Below the pieces are notes generated by a model that worked only from the letters and a program-made list of their open reading frames with translations, was not told the DNA's origin and made no database searches. DNA of 55,643 nt from a virus (lineage: Duplodnaviria; Caudoviricetes). Position 1 is the first letter of the stretch; each line of letters starts with the position of its first letter. Location of the stretch: positions 1-55,643 of the IMG/VR virus record IMGVR_UViG_3300032331_001807. One strand, written 5' to 3'. This document shows, one piece after another, positions 4,888 to 55,643 of this stretch. A program made the position numbers and the translations under genes.

Positions 4888-5388
4888 TCACGCCACGAAG
4901 CGTTCAAGGTTGTCCAGAACGAAGTCTTGGTGGAAGAGGACGGCCCTGCTGAAGCTCTTGATGTCCTCGGCGTACCGCTTGAAGTCAGCGCCTTGGGTCG
5001 GACCTTCCGCCTTGTTGAGTCGTTCCGCCTTGTCGGCCTCGGACAGGATGGCCCCGAAGTACTTCTCGACGACGCCCTTGGGATTGCCCCTCCCAGCGAG
5101 GAGCGCCTTGCGAAGCGCGGCCCCGCCCCCCTCAAGGTCGATGAAGGTGGGCATCACGTCGGCCCCGCCTTTCTTGCCCAAGTAGGCGTCGAGGATCTTC
5201 ACGACCTTCGCGCCACGTTGGAGGACATCTGAATCCCGGTCGCCCGTGCTGGTGAACTCGTCGAGAAGCTCACCAAGCTCCGGGCTCACGCCCGCCGTGC
5301 GAGCGCCCAGAAGAGGCAGGAGATGCGGTCGGAGGTCGGGCTGCTGATACGCGAGCCGGATGACCTTGGAGCGAAGGGTGTTGGACAT
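4888..5388 (-). CDS. putative virion internal protein with shared leader
   Basis: Starts MSNTLRSKVIRLAYQQPDLRPHLLPLLGARTA. Confidence 0.75.
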   Translation of the reverse strand: MSNTLRSKVIRLAYQQPDLRPHLLPLLGARTAGVSPELGELLDEFTSTGDRDSDVLQRGAKVVKILDAYLGKKGGADVMPTFIDLEGGGAALRKALLAGRGNPKGVVEKYFGAILSEADKAERLNKAEGPTQGADFKRYAEDIKSFSRAVLFHQDFVLDNLERFVA

Positions 5389-22689: not shown

Positions 22690-23991
22690 TCACAGACCCA
22701 TCATCTTGCGGTACTTCTTGTTGTACTCGCGACGCGCCGCCGAGCCGTTCGTGCCCGAGTTCGCCGTCCCGTAGCCGCTGTACATGTCCGTGTGCTCGTA
22801 GCAGCCACCCTCGCCGTCGGGGGTGCAGGGAGGCGAGCCCGGACCCGGGGCGGGGTCGTCGTAGTCCTTCGCCTTCGGCTTGTAGCCGGGACCGCCCCAC
22901 GGACGGCCCGCCATGATCTCCTCCGCGACCTGTTCCGCCGAGGGGTGCGCGTCCGCCTGCTTGAGCAGGGGCAGGAGGTGGGGACGGAGCTCCGGGCGCT
23001 GGTGGGCGAGACGGATGACCTTGTTGCGGAGGTCTCGCTCCGCTGCGGTGATGTTGCGTGCCATGATGTTCTTCCTTGCTGCCTTCCTACGAAATGCGTT
23101 GGCGAGAGCGAGAGCCTCTTGGGCGTCAGCGATGAACTTGGGGTACTGCCCGGTGTCGGACATCCTCTTGAAGTTCGCCTCCATCCACTTCTTGAACTTC
23201 CCCTTGATCGCCCCGAACTGCGGGCGACTCATGCCGATGCTATCGGCGTACTCCGTGTCCGAGATGTGCGTACCCTTCACCACCTCGTCGAAGAAGGGAC
23301 GGAACGCATCCCCCTCGTGCTTGGTGAGGGCGGCGGGGATCGCAGTGTCGTGGACCCACTCGGCGTACCCGCGACCGAACGCGCTGTTGGGGTCCTCCAT
23401 CGCGGTCTGCTCCAAGTCCGCGAGCGACGAGAACGCGAGCTCCGACTCGTCCGCCTCCATCCCAGAGGCTCCCCAGCTTTCTTGGCGCTTGCCCCGGCTC
23501 TTCTCGGAGCGGATCACGTCGATGCCCCGCTTGCGGGCGTAGGAAACCACACGGCCAGCCACGTCCCCGAGGGCCTTCTCGGGGTCGGACTTCACGGCCT
23601 CGGGGGTGAAGTGCGTCCCGGCTTGGTAGAAGAAGTTGCCCTTGCCCGAGGAGAGCCCGTTCACGAAGCTCTCTTGGAGGACCTCCTCACCCGTGCCACC
23701 CTTGCCACGCAGCATCGCGTCGATGCCCCGGACCACCGTGTCGTACACGCCCGTGTTGGGCTTCATCCACGGCGAGTGCTTCACGTCCATCGTCGGGTCG
23801 CCGTAGAGCTCCGTGAGCATCTGGGCGATGGCCCGCGTCGGGTTCCGGCCCGACAGGCTGTTGAAGGGCTTGCCGAGCACCCCTTCCAAGAACTGGGCAC
23901 GGGCCAGCATGTCGTCGCTGGCTCCCGCCTTCTTGATGCGCTGGAGGGCTGCGAGGGCCATCCCGAACTTGATGCTCGCCAGACGGTTCAT
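22690..23991 (-). CDS. divergent sigma-factor-like protein fused to a leader-bearing C-terminal module
   Basis: EEVLQESF and SYARKRGIDVIRSE (region 2-like); SDTEYADSIGMSRPQF (region 4 HTH-like); internal MARN...DLRNKVIRLAHQRPELRPHLLPLLKQA. Confidence 0.55.
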   Translation of the reverse strand: MNRLASIKFGMALAALQRIKKAGASDDMLARAQFLEGVLGKPFNSLSGRNPTRAIAQMLTELYGDPTMDVKHSPWMKPNTGVYDTVVRGIDAMLRGKGGTGEEVLQESFVNGLSSGKGNFFYQAGTHFTPEAVKSDPEKALGDVAGRVVSYARKRGIDVIRSEKSRGKRQESWGASGMEADESELAFSSLADLEQTAMEDPNSAFGRGYAEWVHDTAIPAALTKHEGDAFRPFFDEVVKGTHISDTEYADSIGMSRPQFGAIKGKFKKWMEANFKRMSDTGQYPKFIADAQEALALANAFRRKAARKNIMARNITAAERDLRNKVIRLAHQRPELRPHLLPLLKQADAHPSAEQVAEEIMAGRPWGGPGYKPKAKDYDDPAPGPGSPPCTPDGEGGCYEHTDMYSGYGTANSGTNGSAARREYNKKYRKMMGL

Positions 23992-24079
23992 GTAGGTCAA
24001 TCCTCGATGGGGCTGTGACACCGAGCCCGCCGTCACCGGGGGCACACGAGAGCGAGGGTATAAGCCCGCTACCGAGGTC

Positions 24080-24114
24080 GATTCTCGGTTACACCCCGGC
24101 CCCCGGCTTCGTGG
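24080..24114 (+). promoter_or_regulatory. class-1 promoter GGTTAC-N17-CGTGG
   Basis: One of 13 copies with identical spacing. Confidence 0.75.
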
Positions 24115-24220
24115 GGGAGGTGTCCCGGTCGAATCCGCTTGCCAAGGACGACCGATTCCATTATGGTCCCCCCTCGTAACCCAAGGGTCTTTGACCCCAC
24201 GGGACACCACGGGAGCTCTC

Positions 24221-24949
24221 ATGACCACTGCTGTTTTCGGGGGATCTGCTGTCTGTGCGGCCTACCGCGAGGCCGTCGCGAAGGACGAACTCCTCGCGTT
24301 CGCGAAGGGGTCTACGCCTCTGGCGGTCGCGGTGCGGGAGGCTCTCGCACCTGCGCCCAAGCCCGAGCCGAACCTCACGGCTCGATGGCTCGCGGCCAAC
24401 CCCGGGGTCTACCAGACCCTCGTCCACCACATCGGCATGAAGATGCCGTTGTCGAGGAAGCTCGACGTGGTGGAGGATCACGTCCAGACGTTCCTCGCCC
24501 GGATCGTCGAGCGGGACACCCTCGCCCCGTTCCTCCGGGGAGGGAAGTCCGTGCAGATGTCCGTGCTTCGCATCTGGGCCTACCAGAGCGCCAGCACCGA
24601 CTTCCGCCGCTGGGGCGTGGACGCCAGCCTCCGCACGACCCGTGGGGCGAAGACCTCGCGTGAGGTCCAGAAGGGCAAGGCGTTCCGTCCCGTGGTGTCG
24701 CCCACCGCTGCACGGACGATCCCCCAAGAGGGCACCGACCCCGACTACCATGACCCCAACGAGGCGTCGCCCGAGGATGCACTCGCCCGCAAGTCGCGGG
24801 TGGACGTGGTGCGCCGCCACCTCGCTCGACTCGGCAAGAGCGACCTCGTCGCCGCCGTGGACCACCTCCTCGACGGGGGCTCCCTGTCCGACCTCGACGG
24901 GGGCATCGCGGCGCAGTTGACCGCCGCCCTCCGCACCGTCCGGGCGTAA
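24221..24949 (+). CDS. ECF-like sigma factor, divergent
   Basis: VVEDHVQTFLARIVE and LRIWAYQSASTDFRR resemble ECF region 2; SPEDALARK linker; region 4 looks short or degenerate. Confidence 0.5.
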   Translation: MTTAVFGGSAVCAAYREAVAKDELLAFAKGSTPLAVAVREALAPAPKPEPNLTARWLAANPGVYQTLVHHIGMKMPLSRKLDVVEDHVQTFLARIVERDTLAPFLRGGKSVQMSVLRIWAYQSASTDFRRWGVDASLRTTRGAKTSREVQKGKAFRPVVSPTAARTIPQEGTDPDYHDPNEASPEDALARKSRVDVVRRHLARLGKSDLVAAVDHLLDGGSLSDLDGGIAAQLTAALRTVRA

Positions 24950-24958
24950 CCCTTCACC

Positions 24959-25132
24959 ATGAAGGTCTGGATCGTGACGGCGGGTTGGAACCGCGAAGAG
25001 ACGTGGATTCTCGGCGTGTTCGCCACGGAGCAGGGTGCCCAAGCGTTCGTGGGAACCCTCCCCGTGGACGGACGTGGCATGTTCGACGGATACGACTTCG
25101 TGCGGGTCCATGCCTACGACGTGACGCTGTGA
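24959..25132 (+). CDS. small hypothetical protein (57 aa)
   Basis: MKVWIVTAGWNREETWILGVFATEQGA...; below the ORF-track cutoff, read manually. Confidence 0.7.
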   Translation: MKVWIVTAGWNREETWILGVFATEQGAQAFVGTLPVDGRGMFDGYDFVRVHAYDVTL

Positions 25133-25317
25133 ACAACCCCAAGCCCAAGCCCAAGCCCAAGCCCGACAACCTCCCCCGCGTGTATCGCGGCGGGTCGTGG
25201 TTCAGCACGTCCGCCACCCTCGTGCGCGCGGCTTCTCGCTACGACTTCACGTCGTCGATCCGTCACTACATCTTCGGGTTTCGCTGTGTGCTGCGGGGAA
25301 GGGAACCCCGAGTATGA
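25129..25317 (+). CDS. stand-alone FGE/CLec C-terminal variable segment, cassette A
   Basis: RVYRGGSWF...VRAASR...FGFRC; GTG overlaps the upstream TGA. Confidence 0.8.
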   Translation: MNNPKPKPKPKPDNLPRVYRGGSWFSTSATLVRAASRYDFTSSIRHYIFGFRCVLRGREPRV

Positions 25318-25484
25318 GCCCGATCAAAACCCCGCGTGCCATCCGTGGCACCAGTTGGGCCTATCGCGACCCCGGCGAGGACCGCGCCGAGATTCGCGTC
25401 TGTAACGGCATTGAGGATCGCCTACCCGTCGTGGGCTTCCGTTGCTCGCTGCGGGCAAGGGCACCCGTAGAGGCTGATCCGTGA
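25314..25484 (+). CDS. stand-alone FGE/CLec C-terminal segment, cassette B
   Basis: RAIRGTSWAY...RAEIR...VGFRC; ATGA coupling. Confidence 0.75.
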   Translation: MSPIKTPRAIRGTSWAYRDPGEDRAEIRVCNGIEDRLPVVGFRCSLRARAPVEADP

Positions 25485-25663
25485 GCAATCCCGCCTCCCT
25501 CCGTAACGGAGGTTGGGCCGAGGAGGAGCCCGAGACCTTTCGGGCGGCTCACCGTCGCCAAGGCGTGCGCGCCTACCGATGCTGGGGAGCACCCTCGTAC
25601 CGTGACGACGAGACCGGGTTCCGCACCGTGCTGACGGCGGCACGGCAACCCGTCCGGGCGTAA
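25481..25663 (+). CDS. stand-alone FGE/CLec C-terminal segment, cassette C
   Basis: LRNGGW...VRAYR...TGFRT; GTGA coupling. Confidence 0.65.
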   Translation: MSNPASLRNGGWAEEEPETFRAAHRRQGVRAYRCWGAPSYRDDETGFRTVLTAARQPVRA

Positions 25664-25671
25664 CAATCCCC

Positions 25672-27590: not shown

Positions 27591-27914
27591 CTACATCCCA
27601 ACGGACAGGTTTCGGTCTCTGAACTCGATCCAGCGGATCTCGCGAGCCGCGAGCACCTTGCGGAGGTCCTCCGGGTCCATGCGCCCCGGCAGCGTGAAAT
27701 CCACGCTGTAGCCGAAGCCTCCGAGCCAGACCATCTCGGCCTTCACCCCGAGGGTTTTCTCGATCATCTTCACCAAGTTGAGATAACTGGGCGACAGGTC
27801 GTACAGGTCGATCTCGTCCGCAGCGGTCTTGTCTCGACCGAGCAGCGGGAGAAGTTCACCCCGCAGAGCGGGTTGTTGGTGCGCGAGACGGATGAGCTTG
27901 GAACGAAGTGACAT
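27591..27914 (-). CDS. putative virion internal protein with shared leader
   Basis: MSLRSKLIRLAHQQPALRGELLPLLGRDKTA. Confidence 0.75.
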   Translation of the reverse strand: MSLRSKLIRLAHQQPALRGELLPLLGRDKTAADEIDLYDLSPSYLNLVKMIEKTLGVKAEMVWLGGFGYSVDFTLPGRMDPEDLRKVLAAREIRWIEFRDRNLSVGM

Positions 27915-41254: not shown

Positions 41255-42793
41255 TCACTTGGCGAGCACGACACCCGTGAGCAGCACCTCGCACGCCACG
41301 GACATCGCCGCCCGGAGAGACCCCAGCACCACGCCCACGGGGTCTGCCACGGCGGGGGCCTCCCAGAAGTTCTCCACCGACTCCCGCACCGGGCACCAAC
41401 CCACCCACGGGTCGTCCCCCAAGTTGCCCAAGGCGTCGAACGACACGCCCGCCCGAGCACACAGAACCCGTGCAGGCTCCTCCAGCGCCCGTGACAATAC
41501 GCTACCAGCCATGCTGTGACGTAACTCGTCTTGCACGCTAACATAGTGTAGTGTACGGCCAGCCCCCGGAACCACCCCTCCCTTGAGGGTCTCGCGGACG
41601 GCGTGGAGGGTGTCTTCGACTCTCGACCGTCGTTCCACGGCCTCGGCGTTCGTGTAGCCGCCGACCTTGAGGACGCACAGGCCACCGTCCATCGCACCTG
41701 CCCTCTCCCGGTACCTGTCTCGGTCGTAGTCGGAGGTTGTCTCGTCCGCACGTCGAAGGAGCTCTGCTACCCGTGCGGCGATACGGTCTTCCGAATCGGG
41801 GTAGGAGAGGATCTCCGTGCGGTTCTTCTCGACGGTGATCTTCCGGGCGCAGCCGAGCCACTCGGCCTTGAAGTTCTGCACGTTGTCACCCGCGACGGGG
41901 TCCACCAAGAGGCAGTTTGAGACCGCCGCCACGTCCTCCAACCAATCGTGGGTTTCGTAGAGGGAGGGGTTGAGGTAGGTGACGGCGATGCAGGGGAGCA
42001 CCCCCTTGGCGTCGTTCATCACCATCGTCGTGAGGGCGCTCCCACCCAGCCTCGGGCAGAACAGCACGAGCCCGCGCCCCGGCCACTGGGAGGCTTCCTC
42101 CATGAGCGTCTGCACGTCGTCGAACGAGAGCAGGGGCGCGTTGACCACGGCCACCAACGGGCCGTCGAACACCCTCGGCACCCCGTCGCCCTTCGCCATC
42201 GCGACTGCTGCCCATCCCACGTCGAGCACCAGCCCGTCCCGGTAGTCGGCCTCGATGCCCACCCCGTCACCGGGCTGGATCAACACGGTGCCGTTCTCAC
42301 CGACCCGCAGGACGGCGTCCACCACCGTGGAGCTCACCAACTCGTCGCCGTGGGAGGCCATGAGGGCCACGCGGCGCAGGACGGCCTCGTCGGGCTCCCG
42401 GGCCATCTCGGTGATGAGGCTCTCGACGGGGTGGAGATAGTCGCGCAGTTCTTGGACGAGGGCCACCGGGTTCCACGTCCGAGGGGTGTAATGGTCCAGC
42501 GCAGCTTGGACCAGAGCATTTGCCAACAGGATGGTGGTGCTCGTACCATCCCCCGAACTGCCATCCACCACGGAGGTCGCCGCACGAACCAGAGAAACAC
42601 CGAGTCTCTCGTACCCTTGAAAACGTACCTCACGCGCAAGTGATGACCCATCGGTCGTCACCAGCACTCTGCCCTTCTTGTCCACTGCCACCTTGGACCC
42701 GTGTGGCCCGTAGGTGGTCGCTACCAGCTTTGCAAGCTCCGTCATCCCGCGCGTGAGGGACCCCAATGCGCGCTTGCCTTCGATGACCTTCAT
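41255..42793 (-). CDS. GroEL-like chaperonin, divergent
   Basis: TYGPHG, VTTDG, GDGTSTT, LKVGG, RVEDTLHAVR, GGVVPGAG, DPVGVV. Confidence 0.88.
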   Translation of the reverse strand: MKVIEGKRALGSLTRGMTELAKLVATTYGPHGSKVAVDKKGRVLVTTDGSSLAREVRFQGYERLGVSLVRAATSVVDGSSGDGTSTTILLANALVQAALDHYTPRTWNPVALVQELRDYLHPVESLITEMAREPDEAVLRRVALMASHGDELVSSTVVDAVLRVGENGTVLIQPGDGVGIEADYRDGLVLDVGWAAVAMAKGDGVPRVFDGPLVAVVNAPLLSFDDVQTLMEEASQWPGRGLVLFCPRLGGSALTTMVMNDAKGVLPCIAVTYLNPSLYETHDWLEDVAAVSNCLLVDPVAGDNVQNFKAEWLGCARKITVEKNRTEILSYPDSEDRIAARVAELLRRADETTSDYDRDRYRERAGAMDGGLCVLKVGGYTNAEAVERRSRVEDTLHAVRETLKGGVVPGAGRTLHYVSVQDELRHSMAGSVLSRALEEPARVLCARAGVSFDALGNLGDDPWVGWCPVRESVENFWEAPAVADPVGVVLGSLRAAMSVACEVLLTGVVLAK

Positions 42794-42847
42794 CACGCGG
42801 ATTTTACCGCACGAGGTCACCGAGGGGAGTGCGAGAAGGACTCCACC

Positions 42848-43333
42848 ATGACTGAATCCATCGTAGCCCTTTGGCTCACGGTGATGCTCTCCTTCGCCCG
42901 CCACGAGCCTCGTGAGCGGTTGGAGACCATCGCCCGTACCGTCGTCGAAGCGACGAGTGACCCGCAGGAGCAAGCTCTCCTGCTGACCATCTCGTTCTAC
43001 GAGACGGGGTTTGGCCGAGCGGGCATTCCCTTTGGCCTCTCGTCGGTGAACCGCCGGGGACACACGCTGGCGGACGACTCCCAGTCGTCCCTGCGTATCC
43101 TCCGACGGTCCTACGCCCGCTGCGAGCGTGGCTTGGCCCAGATCCTCGGGCACTACCACCACGGCAACGGGTGCCGACCAGACCCGTACTCCTACAACGA
43201 GGCCGAGACCGTCCGCCGCATGGTGGGCCTCTACTACCGTCGCGCCTACGCCACCGGGGTCACAGTGTCCCCGGCACCAGTGTTCCTTCGGTACGCCGAC
43301 AATCGGCCCCGACCGGGAGGTAGGCGACGCTGA
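42848..43333 (+). CDS. hypothetical protein, possibly lytic transglycosylase-like
   Basis: AAGGA RBS; ISFYETGF and HYHHG resemble lysozyme-like motifs; hydrophobic N-terminus. Confidence 0.45.
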   Translation: MTESIVALWLTVMLSFARHEPRERLETIARTVVEATSDPQEQALLLTISFYETGFGRAGIPFGLSSVNRRGHTLADDSQSSLRILRRSYARCERGLAQILGHYHHGNGCRPDPYSYNEAETVRRMVGLYYRRAYATGVTVSPAPVFLRYADNRPRPGGRRR

Positions 43334-45299: not shown

Positions 45300-45581
45300 T
45301 CAGAGTTTGAGGATGTACTTCGCGTAAATGCGGTCGATCTCCTCGTCGGTGGCGTCTTCCAGCACTACGGTGTTGTAACCCTCGACGGCGAGCATGATCT
45401 TGTGCTTCCCGCCACGGACCATCCCATCACCGATCCCTTTGAACCTCTTGAAGATCTCGGCAACCTTCTTCTTTCGGTCCGCAGGGGGCATAGCCGCTTC
45501 CTTCAGGAGAGGGAGAAGGTGGGGGCGGAACTCTGGGCGCTGGTGCGCGAGCCGGATGACCTTGGAACGAAGAGTGCTCAT
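45300..45581 (-). CDS. putative virion internal protein with shared leader
   Basis: MSTLRSKVIRLAHQRPEFRPHLLPLLKEA. Confidence 0.8.
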   Translation of the reverse strand: MSTLRSKVIRLAHQRPEFRPHLLPLLKEAAMPPADRKKKVAEIFKRFKGIGDGMVRGGKHKIMLAVEGYNTVVLEDATDEEIDRIYAKYILKL

Positions 45582-45596: not shown

Positions 45597-46415
45597 TCAG
45601 CGCAGGACGGATTTGAGGTAGTCGAACCACACGTCGTCCCGCGCCCACTGGGTTGCTTGGCTGTCAATCGCGTCGAGGTCCACGCCCTTGGACTTGACGT
45701 AGGCGTCCACGGCGTCGAGGTTGAGGAGCTTCTCGTAGAGCTTTCCCGTGACGTAGGACTTCATCTGCCGCTCGACGGGAAATCCACCGGGGTCTGCCTT
45801 GAAGCCCAACGGGGTCGCACCCCGCTCCACATCCCGAACCGCCCGGTCCATCACGGGGCGGACCTTCGTGTCGAAGTACTCTCGCACGAGGGCGTCCACG
45901 TCACGCTGGGCGTTGGTCTTGGTCTCCTCGACCCACTGCTCCAGCGCACGGGTGTGGGCATCCTCTTGGGCGCGCATCGCCGTCTCGATGGCCCGGAACT
46001 GGGCACCCGACACACGGTTGAGCTCGCCCTTCTTGTCGAGCTTCACGAGGAGGGCGGTCTGGGACTTGGCCGACCCATACTCCTTCTCGTTGCCGTCCGA
46101 CACCCGCCACATGGCCAGAACTTGATGGTCCGTGTCGTAGGCCCAGAGGTACTTCCACGGGTCGTCGGGTCGAACGTGGATGATGCGAGCCCCTTCCTCG
46201 GCCTCCTCGGGGAGCTCCATGAGGTCGCCCATCAGCCCGCCAGAATGGGTGGACAGGACGTACTTGTCGCCCGCGAGGGTCACCGTGTGCGGGTTGCGCG
46301 GCGCGCGGCCCACGAACGGGATCACGTCCCCCGCCGTCTTGAGGAGGGGCAGGAGGAGAGGACGGAGACCGGGCTGGGCATGGGCGAGGCGGATGACCTT
46401 GGATCGCAGGTTCAC
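45597..46415 (-). CDS. putative virion internal protein with shared leader
   Basis: MNLRSKVIRLAHAQPGLRPLLLPLLKTA. Confidence 0.8.
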   Translation of the reverse strand: MNLRSKVIRLAHAQPGLRPLLLPLLKTAGDVIPFVGRAPRNPHTVTLAGDKYVLSTHSGGLMGDLMELPEEAEEGARIIHVRPDDPWKYLWAYDTDHQVLAMWRVSDGNEKEYGSAKSQTALLVKLDKKGELNRVSGAQFRAIETAMRAQEDAHTRALEQWVEETKTNAQRDVDALVREYFDTKVRPVMDRAVRDVERGATPLGFKADPGGFPVERQMKSYVTGKLYEKLLNLDAVDAYVKSKGVDLDAIDSQATQWARDDVWFDYLKSVLR

Positions 46416-46428
46416 GGGAGGAGCTCCT

Positions 46429-47337
46429 TCAGCGCCCGTAGAGGCGGTTTTGCTTCTCGTAGAAGCTCTGCTGGTCCTTCGGGCTCAAGCCCTTGAGGTA
46501 GGCCATGTAGCGGGCGATCCCCACCTTCGCGTCCTGCTCGCCGTCTTGCGTGAGGTCTTCGTAGTCGTAGTGACTGCCCACCCAATCCGCGAGCTCACGC
46601 TGGCTCATCTCCGAGAACACGGCAGACACCACGGGCTCGGGACGACTCGGGAGTTCCCGCACCACGTCGCCCATCCACCTGTCTTGGATCGCGTGGTACT
46701 CGGGAACCGGGATCTGCCACGCCTTCTTCGACGGGTTCCACTTCCACCCGTACTTCTTCATGACCGCGACGAACGGGTAGGTGTTGCCGCTCACGGTCAC
46801 TGTGCCCTCGGTCACGTCGTAGCGACCGGGGTAGGTGTGCTCGACCTTGAGCCCCGCCGCCTCCAGCTTGGGCTGCATCCGTTCAAGCCGCTGCCAGTGC
46901 TCGACGACCTCGCGGTCGTCACCGCCACCACCGGGACGGACCCCACGGTTGAACGCCTCTGCCGCCTCGTTGTGCTTCTTGGCGAGGGCTTGCACCACCG
47001 GGAAGGCAGCTTCTTGGAGCTTGCGGTTCTTGTAGAACTCCGCGTTGCGCCGCCCGCCGTACTTGTACAGCGTCGCGTCGATGCTCCAAACCTTGCTGGC
47101 TGAGTTCCAACGGAAGCCCAGACGCTTGAGCTCGTCACGGTAGTCGAACGTCGGCCCAGCGACATCCAGCACCCAAGAGTCTTCCACGGGGTCGGTCCCG
47201 CCGAAGTCCCCAAGGTTGACGTACTTCACCCGGATGAGTTCTTGGGTGACGCGCGCCGCCTTGAGGAGAGGGAGAAGCTGCGGACGGAGAGACGGCTGCT
47301 GGTGGGCCAGACGGATGAGACGGGTGCGGAGGGTCAT
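46429..47337 (-). CDS. putative virion internal protein with shared leader and two HARP-like/GxTF...GFRWN modules
   Basis: MTLRTRLIRLAHQQPSLRPQLLPLLKAA; GPTFDYRDELKRLGFRWN and GNTYPFVAVMKKYGWKWN. Confidence 0.75.
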   Translation of the reverse strand: MTLRTRLIRLAHQQPSLRPQLLPLLKAARVTQELIRVKYVNLGDFGGTDPVEDSWVLDVAGPTFDYRDELKRLGFRWNSASKVWSIDATLYKYGGRRNAEFYKNRKLQEAAFPVVQALAKKHNEAAEAFNRGVRPGGGGDDREVVEHWQRLERMQPKLEAAGLKVEHTYPGRYDVTEGTVTVSGNTYPFVAVMKKYGWKWNPSKKAWQIPVPEYHAIQDRWMGDVVRELPSRPEPVVSAVFSEMSQRELADWVGSHYDYEDLTQDGEQDAKVGIARYMAYLKGLSPKDQQSFYEKQNRLYGR

Positions 47338-48367: not shown

Positions 48368-48730
48368 TCACTTGGCGTTGTGGACCGCCGAGATCACCGA
48401 AGCGATGAGATCGTCGTGGAACAGTTCGGCGCTCCCCCCGCTGAAGAACTTGTTGAACTTGCCGCTCTCCCAAAGGGCCTTCTTTACCAAGGCCGCGACA
48501 TTTCGCGACGTGTCCTCCACGATCCCTTGGAGGTCGTTGCTCGCGTTGTCGAGGTTCTCTTGGGCCTCTTCCATGTCCTCCTCGGACGCGGGCACCTTGT
48601 CGAACTCCAGAAGGTACGGGTTGAGCTCTTCGCCCAGATTGCCCGCCGCCTTGAGGAGAGGGAGAAGCTGCGGACGGAGATGCGGCTGCTGGTGAGCCAG
48701 CCGAATGAGGGAGGATCGCAGGGAGCTCAT
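48368..48730 (-). CDS. putative virion internal protein with shared leader
   Basis: MSSLRSSLIRLAHQQPHLRPQLLPLLKAA. Confidence 0.8.
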   Translation of the reverse strand: MSSLRSSLIRLAHQQPHLRPQLLPLLKAAGNLGEELNPYLLEFDKVPASEEDMEEAQENLDNASNDLQGIVEDTSRNVAALVKKALWESGKFNKFFSGGSAELFHDDLIASVISAVHNAK

Positions 48731-51586: not shown

Positions 51587-51868
51587 TCACCCTCGGGGGT
51601 TGCGGGCGAAGTGAGCCTTGGACCCGACGACGGGGGCGACCTCCTCCCAATGGGCGCGGCCCACGGGCGAGATGCCCGACGCCGCGATGCGGTCCCGCAG
51701 CGCCCGGATGCTCTCGGGAGCCCGCTCCACCAGCGCCTTGACGGACACCGCATGGTCGTGGCGGAAGCGCCGACCGTCACGGGCAGTCGCCACCACCGAC
51801 CAGAAGGTGGTGACGGCCCCGCCCACGAAACGACAGGTGGGCTCGACGGCGAAGGTAAACGCGGTCAT
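51587..51868 (-). CDS. hypothetical protein
   Basis: ATG 7 nt after a class-1 box. Confidence 0.7.
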   Translation of the reverse strand: MTAFTFAVEPTCRFVGGAVTTFWSVVATARDGRRFRHDHAVSVKALVERAPESIRALRDRIAASGISPVGRAHWEEVAPVVGSKAHFARNPRG

Positions 51869-51875
51869 GCCCCCA

Positions 51876-51966
51876 CCACGGAACCGACCCCTCGGCTGTA
51901 ACCGGGAATCGTCGGGGAGCCCAAGAACTTCGATTCTTGGTTACGGGGGAACCCCTGTCTCCGTGG
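51876..51966. promoter_or_regulatory. back-to-back class-1 promoters
   Basis: GGTTAC-N17-CGTGG on - (51903) and + (51939). Confidence 0.8.
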
Positions 51967-51973
51967 TGAGGGC

Positions 51974-52309
51974 ATGACCACCGAAGTCACCCTCACCGAG
52001 TCTGCCCGCGCCTCCTACCGCATTGCCCGTCTCAACGGGGCGGGCATCCAGACCGCGCTGGAGGCAGCGTGGAAGGAGGTGCGGAGGGCCATGAAGCACC
52101 TCCGCGCCCCCTCGGGCATCGAGGCCATCGGGACGCTCAACACGTCCCGTCGCCGCAACTACCGAAGCCCCCTCGGGCAAGCCCTCAACATCCCCGGCTG
52201 CACGGGGTGCTACGGGCAGTACTGCTCTCTCTGGCGGCGGACGGAGACCTCGTGGCGGGAGCGCGAGGAAACCGTGCAGGCTCTCGTGGCCTTCATGGAG
52301 GAGGCGTGA
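51974..52309 (+). CDS. hypothetical protein
   Basis: ATG 7 nt after a class-1 box. Confidence 0.7.
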   Translation: MTTEVTLTESARASYRIARLNGAGIQTALEAAWKEVRRAMKHLRAPSGIEAIGTLNTSRRRNYRSPLGQALNIPGCTGCYGQYCSLWRRTETSWREREETVQALVAFMEEA

Positions 52310-52503
52310 TGACCCCCCGCGAGCATTCGTGTGTGGGCGGGTACCCGTCCAAGGAGCCGAGTTGGTGGGCGACGGACGGGCGGGGCATCGAGCTCTGCCG
52401 CGTCTGTGACCTGTGCCGGGACGAGAAGCTCGCCCGGTACCGCCCGGAGATCCTCCGTCCCTACGACGAGAGCGACGTGAACGAGCCCATCGAGCCCGAG
52501 TGA
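52309..52503 (+). CDS. small Cys-containing hypothetical protein
   Basis: GGAGG RBS; DGRGIELCRVCDLC. Confidence 0.65.
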   Translation: MTPREHSCVGGYPSKEPSWWATDGRGIELCRVCDLCRDEKLARYRPEILRPYDESDVNEPIEPE

Positions 52504-52610
52504 GGGCGCGGCCCCGCGAGGGGTGGGGCACCCAAGTTCTCCGTGGGAGCCCCACACCAAGAACTTGGATGGCAGCGGAAGGGGCGGGGGAGCACCCCGC
52601 CCCGGGACGG

Positions 52611-52751
52611 TCAACCCTCGGCCACCGCCGCCTTCACCGCCTTGCGGGCGGCTTGACGGGCGCGGGACCGACCCGCCTTGGCCCGACGAGCCACCTCCTT
52701 GCGGGAGGTGGACGCGATGTCGTACTTGGAGCGTGTACCGAGAGGTGCCAT
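52611..52751 (-). CDS. small basic protein (46 aa)
   Basis: MAPLGTRSKYDIASTSRKEVARRAKAGRSRARQAARKAVK...; ATG 7 nt after a class-1 box; not in the ORF track. Confidence 0.6.
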   Translation of the reverse strand: MAPLGTRSKYDIASTSRKEVARRAKAGRSRARQAARKAVKAAVAEG

Positions 52752-52758
52752 GAACATC

Positions 52759-52837
52759 CCACGGAGACAGGGGTGACTCCGTAACCGAAAATCGACCGTG
52801 ACGAATCTTGGTTACGAACCGAGGGTGCTCTCCGTGG
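52759..52837. promoter_or_regulatory. back-to-back class-1 promoters
   Basis: GGTTAC-N17-CGTGG on - (52786) and + (52810). Confidence 0.8.
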
Positions 52838-52844
52838 TGAGGGC

Positions 52845-53162
52845 ATGAACACCCCGAACGCCCAGATCCAGATCGACGACCCCTGCACCGTCTCCGTCGG
52901 CTCCGACCGATACGGAGCCACGGTCATCTCCGTGGCTCCCAAGCGCATCGTCGTCCAGTACGACGACGCCCGCCAGACGGGCGACTACTTCGGCAACCAG
53001 CAGTGGGAGCACACCCGCAACCCCAACGGGCGGACGGTGACCTTCACCCTCCGCACCCTCAAGGGAGGGCGGCTCTGCTGGGCCGAGGAGGGGCGCTCGT
53101 GGAGGGAGTCCCTGCGCCTCACGGTGGGGGTGCGGGACACCTACCAAGACCCGAGCTTCTAG
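52845..53162 (+). CDS. hypothetical protein
   Basis: GSDRYGATVI...YQDPSF; leaderless-type start. Confidence 0.75.
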   Translation: MNTPNAQIQIDDPCTVSVGSDRYGATVISVAPKRIVVQYDDARQTGDYFGNQQWEHTRNPNGRTVTFTLRTLKGGRLCWAEEGRSWRESLRLTVGVRDTYQDPSF

Positions 53163-53324
53163 GCCGGGGCGGGGGGTGGAGGAACCCCCCCGAGAGGGCA
53201 CCAAGTTCTCGGTGTGAACCCCCCACCCCCCAGAGAGAACTTCGGCCCGCCGCCGTGCGGTGTCCACCATCGAACCACGGTTACACAAACGGCCCCGGCT
53301 CCGTTGGGGGCGTAAGGAGTCACC

Positions 53325-54149
53325 ATGAAGATCCAAGTCTGCATCGTCGAGGGACCCAAGGGGGTCTGGCTCGACTACGAGCCCTCCACACCCCTCCCCA
53401 ACACGGATCATCCCGACGAGGTCGCCGGGGTGGTCAACACCATCCGCCTGCCCGAGGGTGTCACCGCCCTGCGGGTACTCACGGCGACGGAGGTGTGGAG
53501 CTTCCACTACCACCCCTCCTACGGGTGCGTCCCGCGCCTCCGCATCGAGGCGGGTGAGGTGGTGATGGAATGGCCGACGAACGCCGAGGTGGGCGGCGTC
53601 TGGACGGTCCACCACGTCCTGCCCGACGGGAACCTCCTGCCCCATTGCTACGTCGAGGGAGCCACGTCCTTCATGATGGGCGACGACGAGAGCCAGACCC
53701 GTCGCAAGGTCGTCGTCGAGGCGGGCTTCATGGCCTTCACCCCGACGACCGTGAGGCAGTGGAACTGGTACGCCACGGACATGGGCAAGGAGCTCAAGCC
53801 CACCACCGTCACGGACAAGTCGGGCGCGACGGTGGACCTGAGCGACCACCCGGTGGTGGAAGTCTCCTACTGGGAATCGTGCGAGTTCGCCAAGTGGGCG
53901 GGCGTCGGCCTCCCCACGGAGGAGGAGTGGGAGCGCGCCGCGCGCGGCAACGACGGGCGCAAGTTTCCGTGGGGCAACGACGCCCCCAAGGATGAGCTCT
54001 GCTGGTCGAGCATTCACTCCCAGAAGGAGCGCACCGCGCCGTGCTTCAACCCGGACGGCACCCCCGCCCGCCCCAAGGGTGCCTCCCCCTACGGGCTGCT
54101 CGACATGAGCGGCAACGTCTGGGAGTGGACCAGCACCGTCCACAAGTGA
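53325..54149 (+). CDS. FGE-sulfatase (SUMF1)/C-type-lectin-fold protein lacking its C-terminal segment
   Basis: FMMGDD, HPVVEVSYWES, LPTEEEWERAARG, FPWGN, SPYGLLDMSGNVWEW, then a stop 6 codons later. Confidence 0.9.
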   Translation: MKIQVCIVEGPKGVWLDYEPSTPLPNTDHPDEVAGVVNTIRLPEGVTALRVLTATEVWSFHYHPSYGCVPRLRIEAGEVVMEWPTNAEVGGVWTVHHVLPDGNLLPHCYVEGATSFMMGDDESQTRRKVVVEAGFMAFTPTTVRQWNWYATDMGKELKPTTVTDKSGATVDLSDHPVVEVSYWESCEFAKWAGVGLPTEEEWERAARGNDGRKFPWGNDAPKDELCWSSIHSQKERTAPCFNPDGTPARPKGASPYGLLDMSGNVWEWTSTVHK

Positions 54150-54319
54150 GACGGGCACAGCCCCCGGACCCCAACCTCCCCCGCGTACTGGTGGGAGGAG
54201 GTTGGGAACTCTCCTACGCCCCGTTCATGCGGCCCGCCGACCGGGGCTCGTACGAGCCCGAGTGGCGCGAGACCGACATTTTTCGCACCCACCTCGCAGG
54301 AAGGGAACCCCGAGTATGA
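54146..54319 (+). CDS. stand-alone FGE/CLec C-terminal segment, cassette D
   Basis: NLPRVLVGGGW...MRPADR...IFRT; GTG overlaps the FGE stop. Confidence 0.75.
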   Translation: MRRAQPPDPNLPRVLVGGGWELSYAPFMRPADRGSYEPEWRETDIFRTHLAGREPRV

Positions 54320-54489
54320 AGCCCCCTACCAAGCCCACCGACACCCGCCTCCGCATCCTCCGCGGCGGCTGTTGGTACAACTATGGACCGTCGAGGGTGC
54401 GCGCGGCGTATCGCAACGCGAACGTGCCTGCGCTCCGAAACTTCCACATCGGGTTTCGGTGCGCGCTGCGGGGTAGGGAACCCCGGTGA
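54316..54489 (+). CDS. stand-alone FGE/CLec C-terminal segment, cassette E
   Basis: RILRGGCWYN...VRAAYR...IGFRC; ATGA coupling. Confidence 0.8.
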   Translation: MKPPTKPTDTRLRILRGGCWYNYGPSRVRAAYRNANVPALRNFHIGFRCALRGREPR

Positions 54490-54532
54490 CGATTCTCGGT
54501 TACAGCCCCGACCCCGTCTCCGTGGTGCTGGC

Positions 54533-54943
54533 ATGACGACCAACATCGAGTGGAAAGACGGGCTGCGGCCCCGTGGCCGCAACGCATGGCTCCTCATCGT
54601 CACCCCGGCGGGTGAGGTCATCCCCTTCAAGGGGACGGACATCCCCGGCACCGTGGTGATCCGTGGCACCTCCTTCCAAAAGAACGGGAAGTGGAGCAAC
54701 ACCACCTACCGTCTGGTGCTCGCCACGGGGGTGAGCCCCATCGCGGGGGTGGACGGCTGGGAGACGGGCACGTTCCGAGAGGGATTGGCCAAGGCCACGG
54801 GGGTGAGCCCCATCGACACTTGGGAAGAGTGCGCCCGGGCGCTTAGGGTCACCTTGGAGTCGGCCAAGCGGTTCCTCACGGCTTGGCGTCCCAAGGCTGC
54901 GGCCCACTTCGACGAGGTCGAGGCCAAGCTGGCCTCCCTGTGA
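54533..54943 (+). CDS. hypothetical protein
   Basis: ATG 7 nt after a class-1 box; KNGKWSNTTY. Confidence 0.75.
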   Translation: MTTNIEWKDGLRPRGRNAWLLIVTPAGEVIPFKGTDIPGTVVIRGTSFQKNGKWSNTTYRLVLATGVSPIAGVDGWETGTFREGLAKATGVSPIDTWEECARALRVTLESAKRFLTAWRPKAAAHFDEVEAKLASL

Positions 54944-55046
54944 GGTGCCGGGGGGCCACTCACCCCCCGCCGTGGGCGGACAAGAAATCGCTGTCAGCAT
55001 CCCCGCCCCGCCCGCGTCTACAGAGCATGACCACCAACGATTTCCT

Positions 55047-55089
55047 GTTACACCACACCCACCGTCTCCGTGGGGAGAGCATGACCACC
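55047..55089 (+). repeat. 43-bp perfect direct repeat (promoter plus first codons); second copy at 55601-55643
   Basis: GTTACACCACACCCACCGTCTCCGTGGGGAGAGCATGACCACC twice. Confidence 0.95.
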
Positions 55090-55530
55090 ACCGTCACCGT
55101 CCTCGTAGGCGTCCCCGGCAGCGGCAAGTCTCACCACACGGAGTCCCTCACGGGTGCCGTGGTGGTCAGCGCCGACCACTACTTTGTCGAGTTGGGAGGT
55201 GGCACCTACGCCTTCGACCCGTCGAAGTTGGGAGCGGCCCACGGGCAGTGCCTTCGCAGGTACACGGAAGCCCTGCAACGGGGTGAGAGCCACGTCGTCG
55301 TGGACAACACGAACACGACCAGCTTGGAGATGGCCCCCTACGTCTCGCTGGCCCTCGCCTACGGGTACCGGGTCGAGATCGTCCGGGTGACCTGCGACCC
55401 CGCCGTGGCAGCGGCGCGCAACACCCACGGGGTCCCAGAAGGGGCCATCCGGGCGATGCACGAACGGATCACGGCCACGTTCCAGACCGGGCTCCCGCCC
55501 TTCTGGCCCGTGACCGTGCGGATGGTGTGA
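55081..55530 (+). CDS. P-loop kinase (AAA_33 / polynucleotide kinase-like)
   Basis: VGVPGSGKS, SADHYF, VVVDNTN, RNTHGVP. Confidence 0.85.
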   Translation: MTTTVTVLVGVPGSGKSHHTESLTGAVVVSADHYFVELGGGTYAFDPSKLGAAHGQCLRRYTEALQRGESHVVVDNTNTTSLEMAPYVSLALAYGYRVEIVRVTCDPAVAAARNTHGVPEGAIRAMHERITATFQTGLPPFWPVTVRMV

Positions 55531-55600
55531 GGGTCAGCCCGCGTCTACCAGCATAACACGCGCCCCGCTCGTTGACCGTCAGCCCCAGTGACGATTCCCA

Positions 55601-55643
55601 GTTACACCACACCCACCGTCTCCGTGGGGAGAGCATGACCACC
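55601..55643 (+). repeat. second copy of the 43-bp repeat; next gene starts at 55635
   Basis: Identical to 55047-55089. Confidence 0.9.

What the first reader, a model, noticed from the sequence alone, without database searches (positions are those of the whole stretch)
53325..54489. Split C-type-lectin (FGE) protein: one scaffold gene plus a library of separately encoded variable C-terminal segments
Seen: the FGE-sulfatase ORF ends at GNVWEWTSTVHK*, just before the RVxRGGSW...RxAxR...GFR segment. Two coupled mini-ORFs (D 54146-54319, E 54316-54489) follow, each encoding only that segment. Three more (A-C) sit 29 kb away. All five have their own start overlapping the upstream stop, a short (mostly Pro/Lys-rich) N-terminal stub, and a related tail (REPR(V) in A, D and E). 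Established: in FGE-type CLec proteins such as Treponema TvpA, this segment is the ligand-binding variable region diversified by DGRs, and it is normally part of the same polypeptide. Inference: one scaffold is completed in trans by interchangeable ~57-aa peptides, giving several binding specificities at once. The class-1 promoter and the lack of a signal peptide suggest an early, intracellular role such as host takeover or anti-defence. I do not know of a description of this arrangement.
Basis: partly seen in the sequence, partly recalled or inferred. Interest (0 to 1): 0.92.

Follow-up and report, generated by a model that had tools for sequence, protein, structure and literature searches.

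The report
Split lectin-fold protein with hypervariable mini-genes
A family of large freshwater phages encodes one constant protein body that lacks its last piece, plus many tiny genes that each supply a different, hypermutated version of that piece, apparently giving a modular set of binding proteins.

Summary
The 274-aa FGE/C-type-lectin ORF (53325-54149) stops 6 residues after GNVWEW. So do 41 of 41 aligned homologues, down to 45% identity.

Five ~57-aa mini-ORFs (D, E; A, B, C) each begin on the upstream stop codon (ATGA/GTGA). Three related phage contigs each hold one scaffold and 8-15 cassette copies.

A complex model places cassette E into the gap of the scaffold: ipSAE 0.95, best of three controls 0.01. 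In a sister lineage a cassette is fused in frame to the N-terminus of the scaffold.

New here: the variable cassettes carry the mark of diversity-generating retroelements (DGRs). All 182 of 182 hypervariable codons are NNC, A is the commonest base at their first two positions, and the framework DNA barely varies. A and E are of this type. D is a conserved, non-variable partner. B and C are divergent singletons.

No reverse transcriptase, Avd or template repeat was found in the four partial genomes, so DGR action is inferred. Translation and binding are untested.

I judge it a new architectural variant of DGR variable proteins.

The parts
52801..52853 (+). Promoter-like repeated motif ahead of the operon that holds the scaffold
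   Evidence: Direct-repeat family D2, 7 copies, each ending at an ORF start. Promoter function is inferred only; the sigma-70 scan finds nothing.
52845..53162 (+). First ORF of the operon (105 aa, unknown function)
   Evidence: GC3 0.95; phrog_33370, E 3e-9.
53325..54149 (+). Scaffold. An N-terminal domain of unknown fold (about residues 1-85) plus an FGE-type C-type-lectin body that lacks its last ~50 residues.
   Evidence: PF03781 positions 15-193 of 255, E 6e-31. AlphaFold2 pLDDT 90.1. Best structural match is TvpA 2y3c_A, Z 13.8, rmsd 3.0, 167 aligned, tied with PvdO at 13.6. 41 of 41 homologues end 5-8 residues after GN.WEW.
54146..54319 (+). Cassette D: constant, non-hypervariable C-terminal segment, coupled to the scaffold stop (GTGA)
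   Evidence: Orthologues with 79-90% protein identity directly follow the scaffold in L003, L004 and L114. The start is ATG in L004. No Pfam hit.
54316..54489 (+). Cassette E: hypervariable C-terminal segment (RGG.W ... GFRC), coupled to the D stop (ATGA)
   Evidence: PF03781 positions 206-254, E 6.6e-7. NNC codon signature. Predicted to dock on the scaffold: ipSAE 0.95 against 0.01 for the best control.
54489..54541 (+). Next promoter-like motif, which marks the end of the scaffold-D-E unit
   Evidence: Family D2.
24959..25132 (+). DUF7336 ORF whose stop overlaps the start of cassette A
   Evidence: PF24024, E 4.7e-8. The order 252-aa ORF, DUF7336, cassette(s), DUF6915 is kept in G001, G002 and L116.
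25129..25317 (+). Cassette A: hypervariable segment of a second framework subtype
   Evidence: PF03781 positions 207-254, E 2.2e-5. NNC-type codons. Relatives at L005 1979-2167 and in L116.
25314..25484 (+). Cassette B: divergent segment (ATGA-coupled), status uncertain
   Evidence: Keeps RG.SW and GFRC. GC3 0.70. Its only hits are about 45% identical to E-type cassettes, so no orthologue was found.
25481..25663 (+). Cassette C: divergent segment (GTGA-coupled), status uncertain
   Evidence: Keeps GGW and GFRT. GC3 0.75. No tblastn hit in any fetched locus.

Best explanation
The locus is a naturally split variable protein of the FGE-type C-type-lectin fold, the fold of DGR variable proteins such as TvpA.

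One gene encodes the invariant body, which ends just after the GNVWEW strand. The last ~45 residues of the fold (RV.RGG.W ... R.A.R ... GFRC) form the ligand-binding variable region in intact relatives. Here they are encoded separately, as ~57-aa mini-ORFs.

Each mini-ORF carries its own ribosome-binding stretch and a start codon that overlaps the preceding stop (ATGA/GTGA). It would therefore be made by termination-reinitiation and would then dock into the open body to complete the fold.

D is a conserved default partner. E, A and their many paralogues in related phages (up to 15 detected on one contig) are alternative partners that differ almost only at surface positions. Those positions carry the codon signature of adenine-specific mutagenesis, so a DGR has written, and probably still writes, new variants into the mini-ORFs.

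The result would be one scaffold plus a growing, hypermutable panel of binding specificities at about 170 bp each.

Shown: the conserved split, the coupling, the copy numbers, the NNC signature and the natural fusion. Inferred: translation, docking, current DGR activity and the ligand.
For: 1. The split is conserved, not a lesion. 41 of 41 aligned homologues (45-99% identity) end 5-8 residues after GN.WEW. No C-terminally fused form appeared among proteins of 150-480 aa or among longer relatives of E.

2. The parts complement each other. The scaffold covers PF03781 positions 15-193 and the cassettes cover 206-254. The cassette profile aligns to the last ~45 residues of solved FGE-family chains and of TvpA (253-293 of 294).

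3. Co-occurrence. G001, G002 and G003 each hold one scaffold and 9, 15 and 8 cassette matches. L113 and L114 also hold a scaffold followed by arrays.

4. Coupling. 39 of 41 cassette ORFs found in 10 loci start on an ATGA/GTGA overlap. The overlap persists where the tail sequence differs.

5. Natural fusion. In L005, P0045 and P0046 a cassette is fused in frame to the N-terminus of the scaffold.

6. Complex model. ipSAE was 0.95 in each of 3 runs, and the best of 3 controls was 0.01. There were 229-242 contacts, partner pLDDT was at least 84, and the runs agree in at least 95% of contacts. This mark was reached by 58 of 80 solved complexes and by 2 of 110 mismatched pairs. The scaffold alone folds at pLDDT 90.1, with its last two ten-residue blocks at 70 and 56.

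7. DGR signature in 26 canonical cassettes from 4 phage records.
- 182 of 182 codons at 7 hypervariable sites end in C (log10 P = -20.4 given the same amino acids and the window's codon usage).
- None of the 182 encodes K, E, Q, M or W.
- At codon positions 1 and 2 the bases are A 164, T 89, G 91 and C 20, of 364.
- Other codons vary at one position only (NCG, GNG, NGG).
- Framework DNA is nearly identical between phages whose scaffolds share only 47% of residues.

8. Hypervariation on an identical background. P0045 and the L005 fusion are identical over 297 of 297 scaffold residues, while only 32 of the 57 aligned cassette columns are identical.
Against: - No reverse transcriptase (PF00078, 0 of 4 records) and no Avd-like protein (PF05635, 0 of 4).
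- No A-rich template copy. Every BLAST copy in G000-G003 is a cassette ORF. Pattern and profile scans of IMG/VR found no further copies.
- No YxDD motif (a rough regex screen for a reverse transcriptase) in the high-GC3 open frames of 200 aa or more next to arrays in 5 metagenome loci.
- The records are only 13-59% complete, so these absences are weak. Still, the retroelement itself is not shown.
- There are no RNA, ribosome or protein data.
- dN/dS of D is 0.41-0.87 on very few changes. The 3' half of the scaffold plus D is a high-identity mosaic block, so selection on D as a protein is not demonstrated.
- The complex score may reflect the model's memory of intact FGE folds (one search states this).
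- One scaffold for up to 15 cassettes, mostly at distant loci among non-structural genes, is an odd stoichiometry.
- A contig of a relative about 92% identical joins 54145 directly to 54486, so it lacks D and E at this site.
- Cassette-only concatemers exist in other lineages, so cassettes might act without a scaffold.
- The 3' hairpin is no more stable than in shuffled sequence (z -0.42 to +0.58).
Confidence: 0.65

Rival explanations
1. The cassettes are autonomous small proteins or repeat modules that act without the scaffold, for example as decoys or as binders of another partner. On this view the truncated scaffold has a separate role.
For: - Most cassettes lie far from the single scaffold, among Toprim, metallopeptidase and HTH genes.
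- Other lineages have proteins made only of 2-4 fused cassette-like segments: 17 of the best 150 representatives are 100-290 aa long with 2-4 matched stretches.
- A relative lacks D and E next to its scaffold.
Against: - The scaffold is cut exactly at the domain boundary in 41 of 41 homologues.
- The two parts tile the Pfam profile without overlap.
- Cassette-scaffold fusions occur naturally.
- The docking model scores 0.95 against 0.01.
- A 45-residue stretch of buried beta-strands from a lectin fold is unlikely to fold alone (inference).
Confidence: 0.12
2. The cassettes are silent donor copies that are not translated. They would be moved by recombination next to the scaffold, as in pilin or VlsE antigenic variation.
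For: - There is one expression-like site and many scattered copies.
- Paralogues within one genome share mosaic segments (L084, L086 and L004 copies).
- Cassette number varies at the same locus, 1 to 3, and a deletion removes D and E exactly.
Against: - Even the copy next to the scaffold is a separate ORF in another frame.
- 39 of 41 cassettes keep a start codon that overlaps the previous stop, behind a purine-rich stretch.
- No cassette found has an internal stop.
- Gene callers of several sources predict them as 54-72-aa proteins.
Confidence: 0.08
3. The scaffold and D, or successive cassettes, are joined into one polypeptide by programmed -1 frameshifting or another recoding event.
For: Each unit lies in the -1 frame of the previous one, and the D frame is open for 35 codons before the scaffold stop.
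Against: - I see no X XXY YYZ slippery heptamer in the last codons of the scaffold (read).
- In L113 about 110 nt separate the scaffold stop from the first cassette.
- The stop context differs in L003.
- Fusing cassette to cassette makes no structural sense.
Confidence: 0.05
4. A recent frameshift, a pseudogene or an assembly error in an ordinary FGE-domain gene.
For: A single base change near 54146 would fuse the scaffold to D.
Against: - The same break occurs in 41 of 41 homologues from JGI, ENA, NCBI and Logan assemblies.
- A Logan contig of the likely source run matches the whole stretch with 0 differences (record 1).
- The start codon of D is conserved as GTG or ATG.
Confidence: 0.02

Closest known systems
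TvpA (Treponema denticola variable protein 1, PDB 2y3c) and other FGE-type DGR variable proteins
   Same: Same fold: Z 13.8, rmsd 3.0, 167 aligned, the top row though tied with PvdO. The variable segment sits in the same place, the last ~45 residues (TvpA 253-293 of 294). The variable codons are of the same NNC type.
   Different: In TvpA the body and the variable region are one polypeptide, and its reverse transcriptase and template are known (recalled). Here they are separate genes, with many variable segments per body, and no retroelement was found.
Mtd of Bordetella phage BPP-1, the founding phage DGR target
   Same: A phage-encoded C-type-lectin fold with a C-terminal variable region. It is a weak structural match (1yu0_A, Z 6.2).
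   Different: Mtd is a single-chain tail-fibre tip protein with an adjacent avd-TR-brt unit (recalled). Here the protein is split, there is no structural-gene context, and the genomes are jumbo-sized.
Multi-target DGRs
   Same: Several variable regions per genome, some in tandem and some remote. Wu et al. 2018 report up to eight tandem targets in a Stenotrophomonas and target genes as small as 44 aa (PMC5758913, passages seen). Schillinger et al. 2012 report up to four variable regions (PMC3521204, passages seen).
   Different: [quoted passage not shown] They describe no separate shared scaffold.
Formylglycine-generating enzyme, EgtB and PvdO (PF03781 enzymes)
   Same: Sequence family and fold.
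   Different: In the alignment the two cysteines of the 6muj segment aligned to the cassettes have no counterpart in the cassette profile. The only invariant cysteine is the one in GFRC. A binding role is more likely than catalysis (inference).
Silent-cassette antigenic variation (pilE/pilS, vlsE) and fragment complementation (lacZ alpha) as functional analogies
   Same: One constant part and many interchangeable variable parts. The protein would be completed non-covalently by a small fragment.
   Different: There is no homology. Here the choice would be made at the protein level among co-translated peptides, not by DNA recombination. These comparisons are recalled, not tested.

Membership tests
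FGE-sulfatase / SUMF1 domain (Pfam PF03781) | Match to the family profile above the curated cut-off | tested here: met
   Scaffold 108.5 bits, E 29.7 bits, A 24.7 bits, against a cut-off of 23.3. B, C and D: no hit at E <= 1.
FGE-sulfatase / SUMF1 domain (Pfam PF03781) | Whole domain within one polypeptide | tested here: not met
   The scaffold covers profile positions 15-193 and the cassettes cover 206-254 of 255. The break is conserved in 41 of 41 homologues.
Formylglycine-generating enzymes (catalytic members) | Pair of catalytic cysteines in the C-terminal segment (their catalytic role is recalled) | tested here: not met
   In the alignment to 6muj, the chain's C...C stretch faces non-cysteine profile positions and a 2-residue gap. 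The invariant cassette columns are G17, G18, G46, F47, R48 and C49 only.
DGR variable protein (C-type-lectin-fold target) | C-type-lectin / FGE-type fold | tested here: met
   TvpA Z 13.8, TaqVP Z 8.2, Mtd Z 6.2.
DGR variable protein (C-type-lectin-fold target) | Variable region whose differences fall on template adenines (AAC to NNC) | tested here: inconclusive
   The signature is present: 182 of 182 hypervariable codons are NNC, and A is the plurality base (164 of 364) at positions 1-2. No template repeat is at hand, so the TR-VR comparison that defines the feature could not be made.
DGR (whole element) | DGR-clade reverse transcriptase, template repeat and accessory protein in the genome | tested here: inconclusive
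   PF00078 matched 0 of 4 records and PF05635 matched 0 of 4. No A-rich copy was found. The records are 13, 39, 59 and 24% complete.
DGR (whole element) | Conserved 3' target element (IMH plus hairpin) after each variable region (recalled from work on BPP-1) | tested here: inconclusive
   A conserved GC-rich 3' end carries a 5-6-bp stem (CGGGG...CCCCG) in A, E and the L004 copy, and a 4-bp stem with a GAAA loop in the L005 type. None is more stable than shuffled sequence. The same bases also supply the ribosome-binding stretch and start of the next ORF.

The most novel reading that the evidence does not exclude
These phages run a two-chain binder system: one invariant lectin-fold body and a genome-wide, DGR-fed array of hypervariable ~57-aa peptides that complete it non-covalently. 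A single infection would then make a panel of different binders at once. New specificities would cost about 170 bp each and could spread by tandem duplication, because every cassette carries the ribosome-binding stretch and start codon of the next. Most arrays lie among non-structural genes, so the panel may work inside the cell, for example against variable host defence proteins, rather than on the virion. Cassette-only concatemers in other lineages suggest that detached variable segments are a wider, overlooked class of DGR targets.
Probability: 0.45. Interest if true: 0.92.

Novelty: new variant of a known kind. Interest (0 to 1): 0.82.

Why it matters
DGR variable proteins are the most variable proteins known, and each has been treated as a single chain.

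A split form would show three things:
- The lectin-fold variable region can be delivered as a separate peptide.
- It would explain very short "targets" that surveys set aside. Roux et al. 2021 kept genes under 300 nt out of their de novo clustering (PMC8144416, passage).
- It would give a natural template for modular binder libraries: one scaffold and swappable ~50-residue hypervariable inserts.

It also raises a testable question about phage biology. What does a jumbo phage do with 15 or more alternative specificities that are not linked to tail genes?

Tried and rejected
- D and E as a template/variable pair of each other: rejected, since they share only about half of their bases.
- Close relatives among isolated phages: none by DNA. 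The scaffold protein gives only distant FGE hits under 37% identity, and cassette E gives none.
- Reference prokaryote genomes: only two weak cassette hits.
- Search for the retroelement, all negative:
  - PF00078 in G000-G003 and in three further records. Two of those three, L089 and L094, proved to be chance pattern matches.
  - PF05635.
  - Pfam on 30 window ORFs other than the scaffold and cassettes.
  - Framework DNA patterns in IMG/VR.
  - The cassette profile in IMG/VR and in JGI/ENA metagenome contigs.
  - A YxDD screen of flanking ORFs.
- Folding the natural fusion P0045 without an alignment failed (pLDDT 34.8). A mixed alignment for it (A4) misplaced the scaffold N-termini onto the cassette, so I did not fold it.
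- dN/dS of D was uninformative.
- Hairpin stability was not above shuffles.
- Read laying returned contigs only, so within-population variation could not be read. Parts without cover in runs X2, X6 and X8 are not evidence.
- The N-terminal domain (about residues 1-85) has no structural match above Z 4.6. It was not folded alone, so this does not show a new fold. BFVD gave one hit at E <= 0.001, an unnamed 602-aa protein.
- Not in print as far as I could search: five full-text searches and passages of four papers gave no description of a split DGR target with a shared scaffold.
Full report
CONTEXT. The window is a whole IMG/VR virus record of 55,643 bp. It has 65% G+C and CheckV estimates it 13% complete, so it is a fragment of a very large phage genome. 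It encodes a RecD2-like helicase, class II ribonucleotide reductase, RecA, an SbcC-like ATPase, a GroEL-like chaperonin, a C39 peptidase, an amidase and nucleases. Public runs that hold parts of the locus are labelled mostly freshwater or lake metagenomes. Only X1, X2, X6 and X8 were laid.

- The ORF 53325-54149 ends ...GNVWEWTSTVHK* and matches Pfam PF03781 only over profile positions 15-193 of 255.
- D (54146-54319) starts at a GTG inside AAGTGA. E (54316-54489) starts at an ATG inside GTATGA.
- A (25129-25317), B (25314-25484) and C (25481-25663) form a second chain of overlapping starts behind a DUF7336 ORF.
- E and A alone match PF03781 positions 206-254 above the curated cut-off. B, C and D do not.

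NOT A FRAMESHIFT.
- A search of 5.8 billion proteins gave 46 close homologues of the scaffold. I aligned 41.
- I left out four short or partial ones (P0013, P0033, P0036, P0037) and the two N-terminal fusions.
- All 41 end 5-8 residues after GN.WEW, across 45-99% identity and four data sources. The two fusions end at the same point.
- No C-terminally fused form appeared among proteins of 150-480 aa or among longer relatives of E.
- A Logan contig of the probable source run covers 53325-54600 with no difference.

RELATIVES SHOW THE SAME ARCHITECTURE, ENLARGED.
- Three IMG/VR contigs are related: G001 (167 kb), G002 (266 kb) and G003 (106 kb). Their scaffolds are 87, 74 and 47% identical to the window's.
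- Each holds exactly one match to the N-terminal part of the FGE profile, and 9, 15 and 8 BLAST matches to cassette E.
- The cassettes stand in tandem arrays after the scaffold, before it in G003, and at several distant loci. Two metagenome contigs, L113 and L114, show a scaffold followed by arrays.
- Of 41 cassette ORFs that my motif search found in 10 loci, 39 start on an ATGA or GTGA overlap. The script prefers such starts, so this count leans that way.
- The overlap is kept in L113, where the cassette tails have a different sequence.
- The A-C locus is syntenic in G001, G002 and L116: 252-aa ORF, DUF7336, cassette(s), DUF6915. It holds one to three cassettes.

THE CASSETTES ARE OF THREE KINDS.
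- D has orthologues of 79-90% protein identity directly after the scaffold in L003, L004 and L114. Its residues at the variable positions include E, W, M and K. It is a constant partner.
- E and A belong to hypervariable families.
- B and C have no orthologue in any fetched locus and have a lower GC3 (0.70 and 0.75). They may be decaying.

THE HYPERVARIABLE CASSETTES CARRY A DGR SIGNATURE. I collected 26 canonical E/A-type cassettes, 25 of them unique, from the window and nine loci of G001-G003, and lined them up by codon.
- At seven codons the third base never varies: it is C in 182 of 182 cases. The first two bases have 1.2-1.9 bits of entropy.
- With the same amino acids and the window's own codon usage, the chance that all end in C is about 10^-20. 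None of the 182 encodes K, E, Q, M or W, which needs a chance of about 10^-15.
- These figures ignore shared ancestry of paralogues, so they overstate independence. The pattern is nonetheless absolute.
- At positions 1-2 the bases are A 164, T 89, G 91 and C 20, of 364.
- Other codons vary at a single position (NCG, GNG, A/TGG, NGT).
- From recalled knowledge, this is what mutagenesis of AAC and other A-containing template codons by a DGR produces, with A-to-C the rarest change.
- Framework codons are nearly identical in DNA, synonymous sites included, between phages whose scaffolds share only 47% of residues. That fits repeated overwriting from a conserved template, or frequent exchange of cassettes.
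- P0045 and the L005 fusion ORF are identical over 297 of 297 scaffold residues, while only 32 of the 57 aligned cassette columns are identical. The variable segment of P0045 matches neither L005 cassette. This points to recent change.

THE RETROELEMENT ITSELF WAS NOT FOUND.
- PF00078 and PF05635 match none of the four records. The same searches do find hits in control genomes, including Bacteroides thetaiotaomicron.
- Every cassette-like DNA copy in G000-G003 is an ORF of the array type, and none has A at all variable sites.
- Scans of IMG/VR and of metagenome contigs gave no template-like copy and no reverse transcriptase next to arrays.
- The records are 13-59% complete and all overlap the scaffold region. 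The element may therefore lie in unsampled DNA, act from another replicon, or have been lost recently.

DO THE PIECES FIT?
- The scaffold and the cassette tile the Pfam profile without overlap.
- The cassette profile aligns to the extreme C-terminus of solved FGE-family chains and of TvpA.
- The scaffold alone folds with pLDDT 90.1, but its last two ten-residue blocks fall to 70 and 56.
- Its lectin part (residues 85-274) is closest to TvpA, Z 13.8. This ties with PvdO at 13.6 and lies near EgtB at 12.7. The DGR proteins TaqVP and Mtd follow at 8.2 and 6.2.
- A complex model of the scaffold (41-row alignment) with E (37-row alignment) scored ipSAE 0.95 in all three runs. The best of three controls scored 0.01.
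- The model has 229-242 contacts, partner pLDDT of at least 84 and at least 95% agreement between runs. The mark was reached by 58 of 80 solved complexes and by 2 of 110 mismatched pairs.
- The GFR strand (cassette 45-47) and the strand at cassette 14-16 pack against scaffold 265-271.
- Because intact FGE folds are in the training data, this pass shows that the two halves look like one split domain. It does not show that they bind in a cell.
- The natural N-terminal fusion in three sequences of the G003 lineage is independent, Rosetta-stone-type evidence for a functional link.

MECHANISM PROPOSED.
- Transcription (inferred): it starts from the repeated motif at 52801 and gives an mRNA for the 105-aa ORF, the scaffold, D and E. 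The next motif starts at 54489.
- Translation (inferred): the scaffold has an AAGGAG stretch 7 nt before its ATG. D and E are then made by reinitiation at the overlapping stop-start.
- Assembly (inferred): each peptide completes one scaffold molecule. The hypervariable residues lie in three blocks of about four, after the W, after the first conserved R and after the second conserved R. In TvpA these positions form the binding surface (recalled).
- Array growth (inferred): the 3' end of every cassette carries the purine-rich stretch and the start codon of the next (D12). Unequal crossing-over can therefore lengthen arrays, and deletions remove whole units. A relative joins 54145 to 54486 exactly.
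- The ligand and the site of action are unknown. Flanking genes are non-structural.

COMPARISON WITH PRINT.
- Surveys report multi-target DGRs, tandem targets (up to eight) and targets as small as 44 aa. They describe the smallest as whole Ig or lectin folds (PMC5758913, passages).
- Another survey reports up to four variable regions per DGR (PMC3521204, passages).
- The global survey kept genes under 300 nt out of its de novo clustering (PMC8144416, passage).
- A review of jumbo phages found none of the reverse-transcriptase-diversified C-type-lectin-fold domains (which it calls FGS domains) in 224 jumbo phages (PMC7824862, passage).
- Five full-text searches gave no split-target description.
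- A profile search of 1.84 billion representatives shows the segment is common as the end of ordinary FGE domains (20,189 hits at E <= 0.001). Among the best 150 it also gives 11 stand-alone proteins of 54-71 aa and 17 proteins of 100-290 aa that hold 2-4 cassette-like stretches and no room for a body. Detached variable segments may therefore be more widespread.

VERDICT. The finding is extended by the DGR signature and by the scale of the arrays. The retroelement, expression, binding and function remain to be shown.

Noticed in passing
window 24078-24130, 51930-51982, 52801-52853, 54489-54541, 54983-55035, 55037-55089, 55591-55643: Seven + strand copies of a 53-nt motif (direct-repeat family D2). 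Six of the seven run into an ORF start (ATGAC/ATGAA); the copy at 24078-24130 does not show it. It looks like a phage-specific promoter plus leader. The sigma-70 scan of 51800-55643, which holds six of the seven copies, finds nothing.
   Followed up: partly
window 5296-5378, 22951-23033, 27828-27910, 45492-45574, 46329-46411, 47251-47333, 48641-48723: Seven copies of an 83-nt repeat (60-86% identity) within minus-strand genes, which suggests a family of paralogous proteins that share one conserved segment (family D1).
   Followed up: no
window 24918-24950 and 25632-25664: A 33-nt direct repeat (76% identity). The first copy ends one base after the stop of the 252-aa ORF and the second one base after the stop of cassette C, so the pair brackets the DUF7336-A-B-C block. 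This may be a trace of how the block was inserted or duplicated (family D18).
   Followed up: no
L005 5626-6711; proteins P0045, P0046: In the G003 lineage a hypervariable cassette is fused in frame, through a linker of about 12 residues, to the N-terminus of the scaffold. This is a natural circular-permutation-like form of the domain.
   Followed up: partly
run X2, record 8, laid on window 53325-54598: A 1,159-nt contig of a relative about 92% identical joins 54145 directly to 54486, so it lacks exactly cassettes D and E (tables 5 and 8).
   Followed up: no
proteins P0144, P0156, P0177, P0166, P0154 (representative library): Proteins of 143-263 aa made of three or four fused cassette-like segments with DGR-like composition and no lectin body, from other, unknown lineages.
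   Followed up: partly
window 53796-54319 compared with L003, L004, L114: Nucleotide identity to the relatives is 0.48-0.92 in the ten 60-nt windows of the 5' part of the scaffold gene and 0.78-1.00 in the six windows covering its 3' part and D. This mosaic suggests recombination or a mobile module.
   Followed up: partly
window 41255-43162: A GroEL-like chaperonin gene (PF00118, E 2.3e-30) in a phage that also carries class II ribonucleotide reductase, RecA and a RecD2-like helicase.
   Followed up: no
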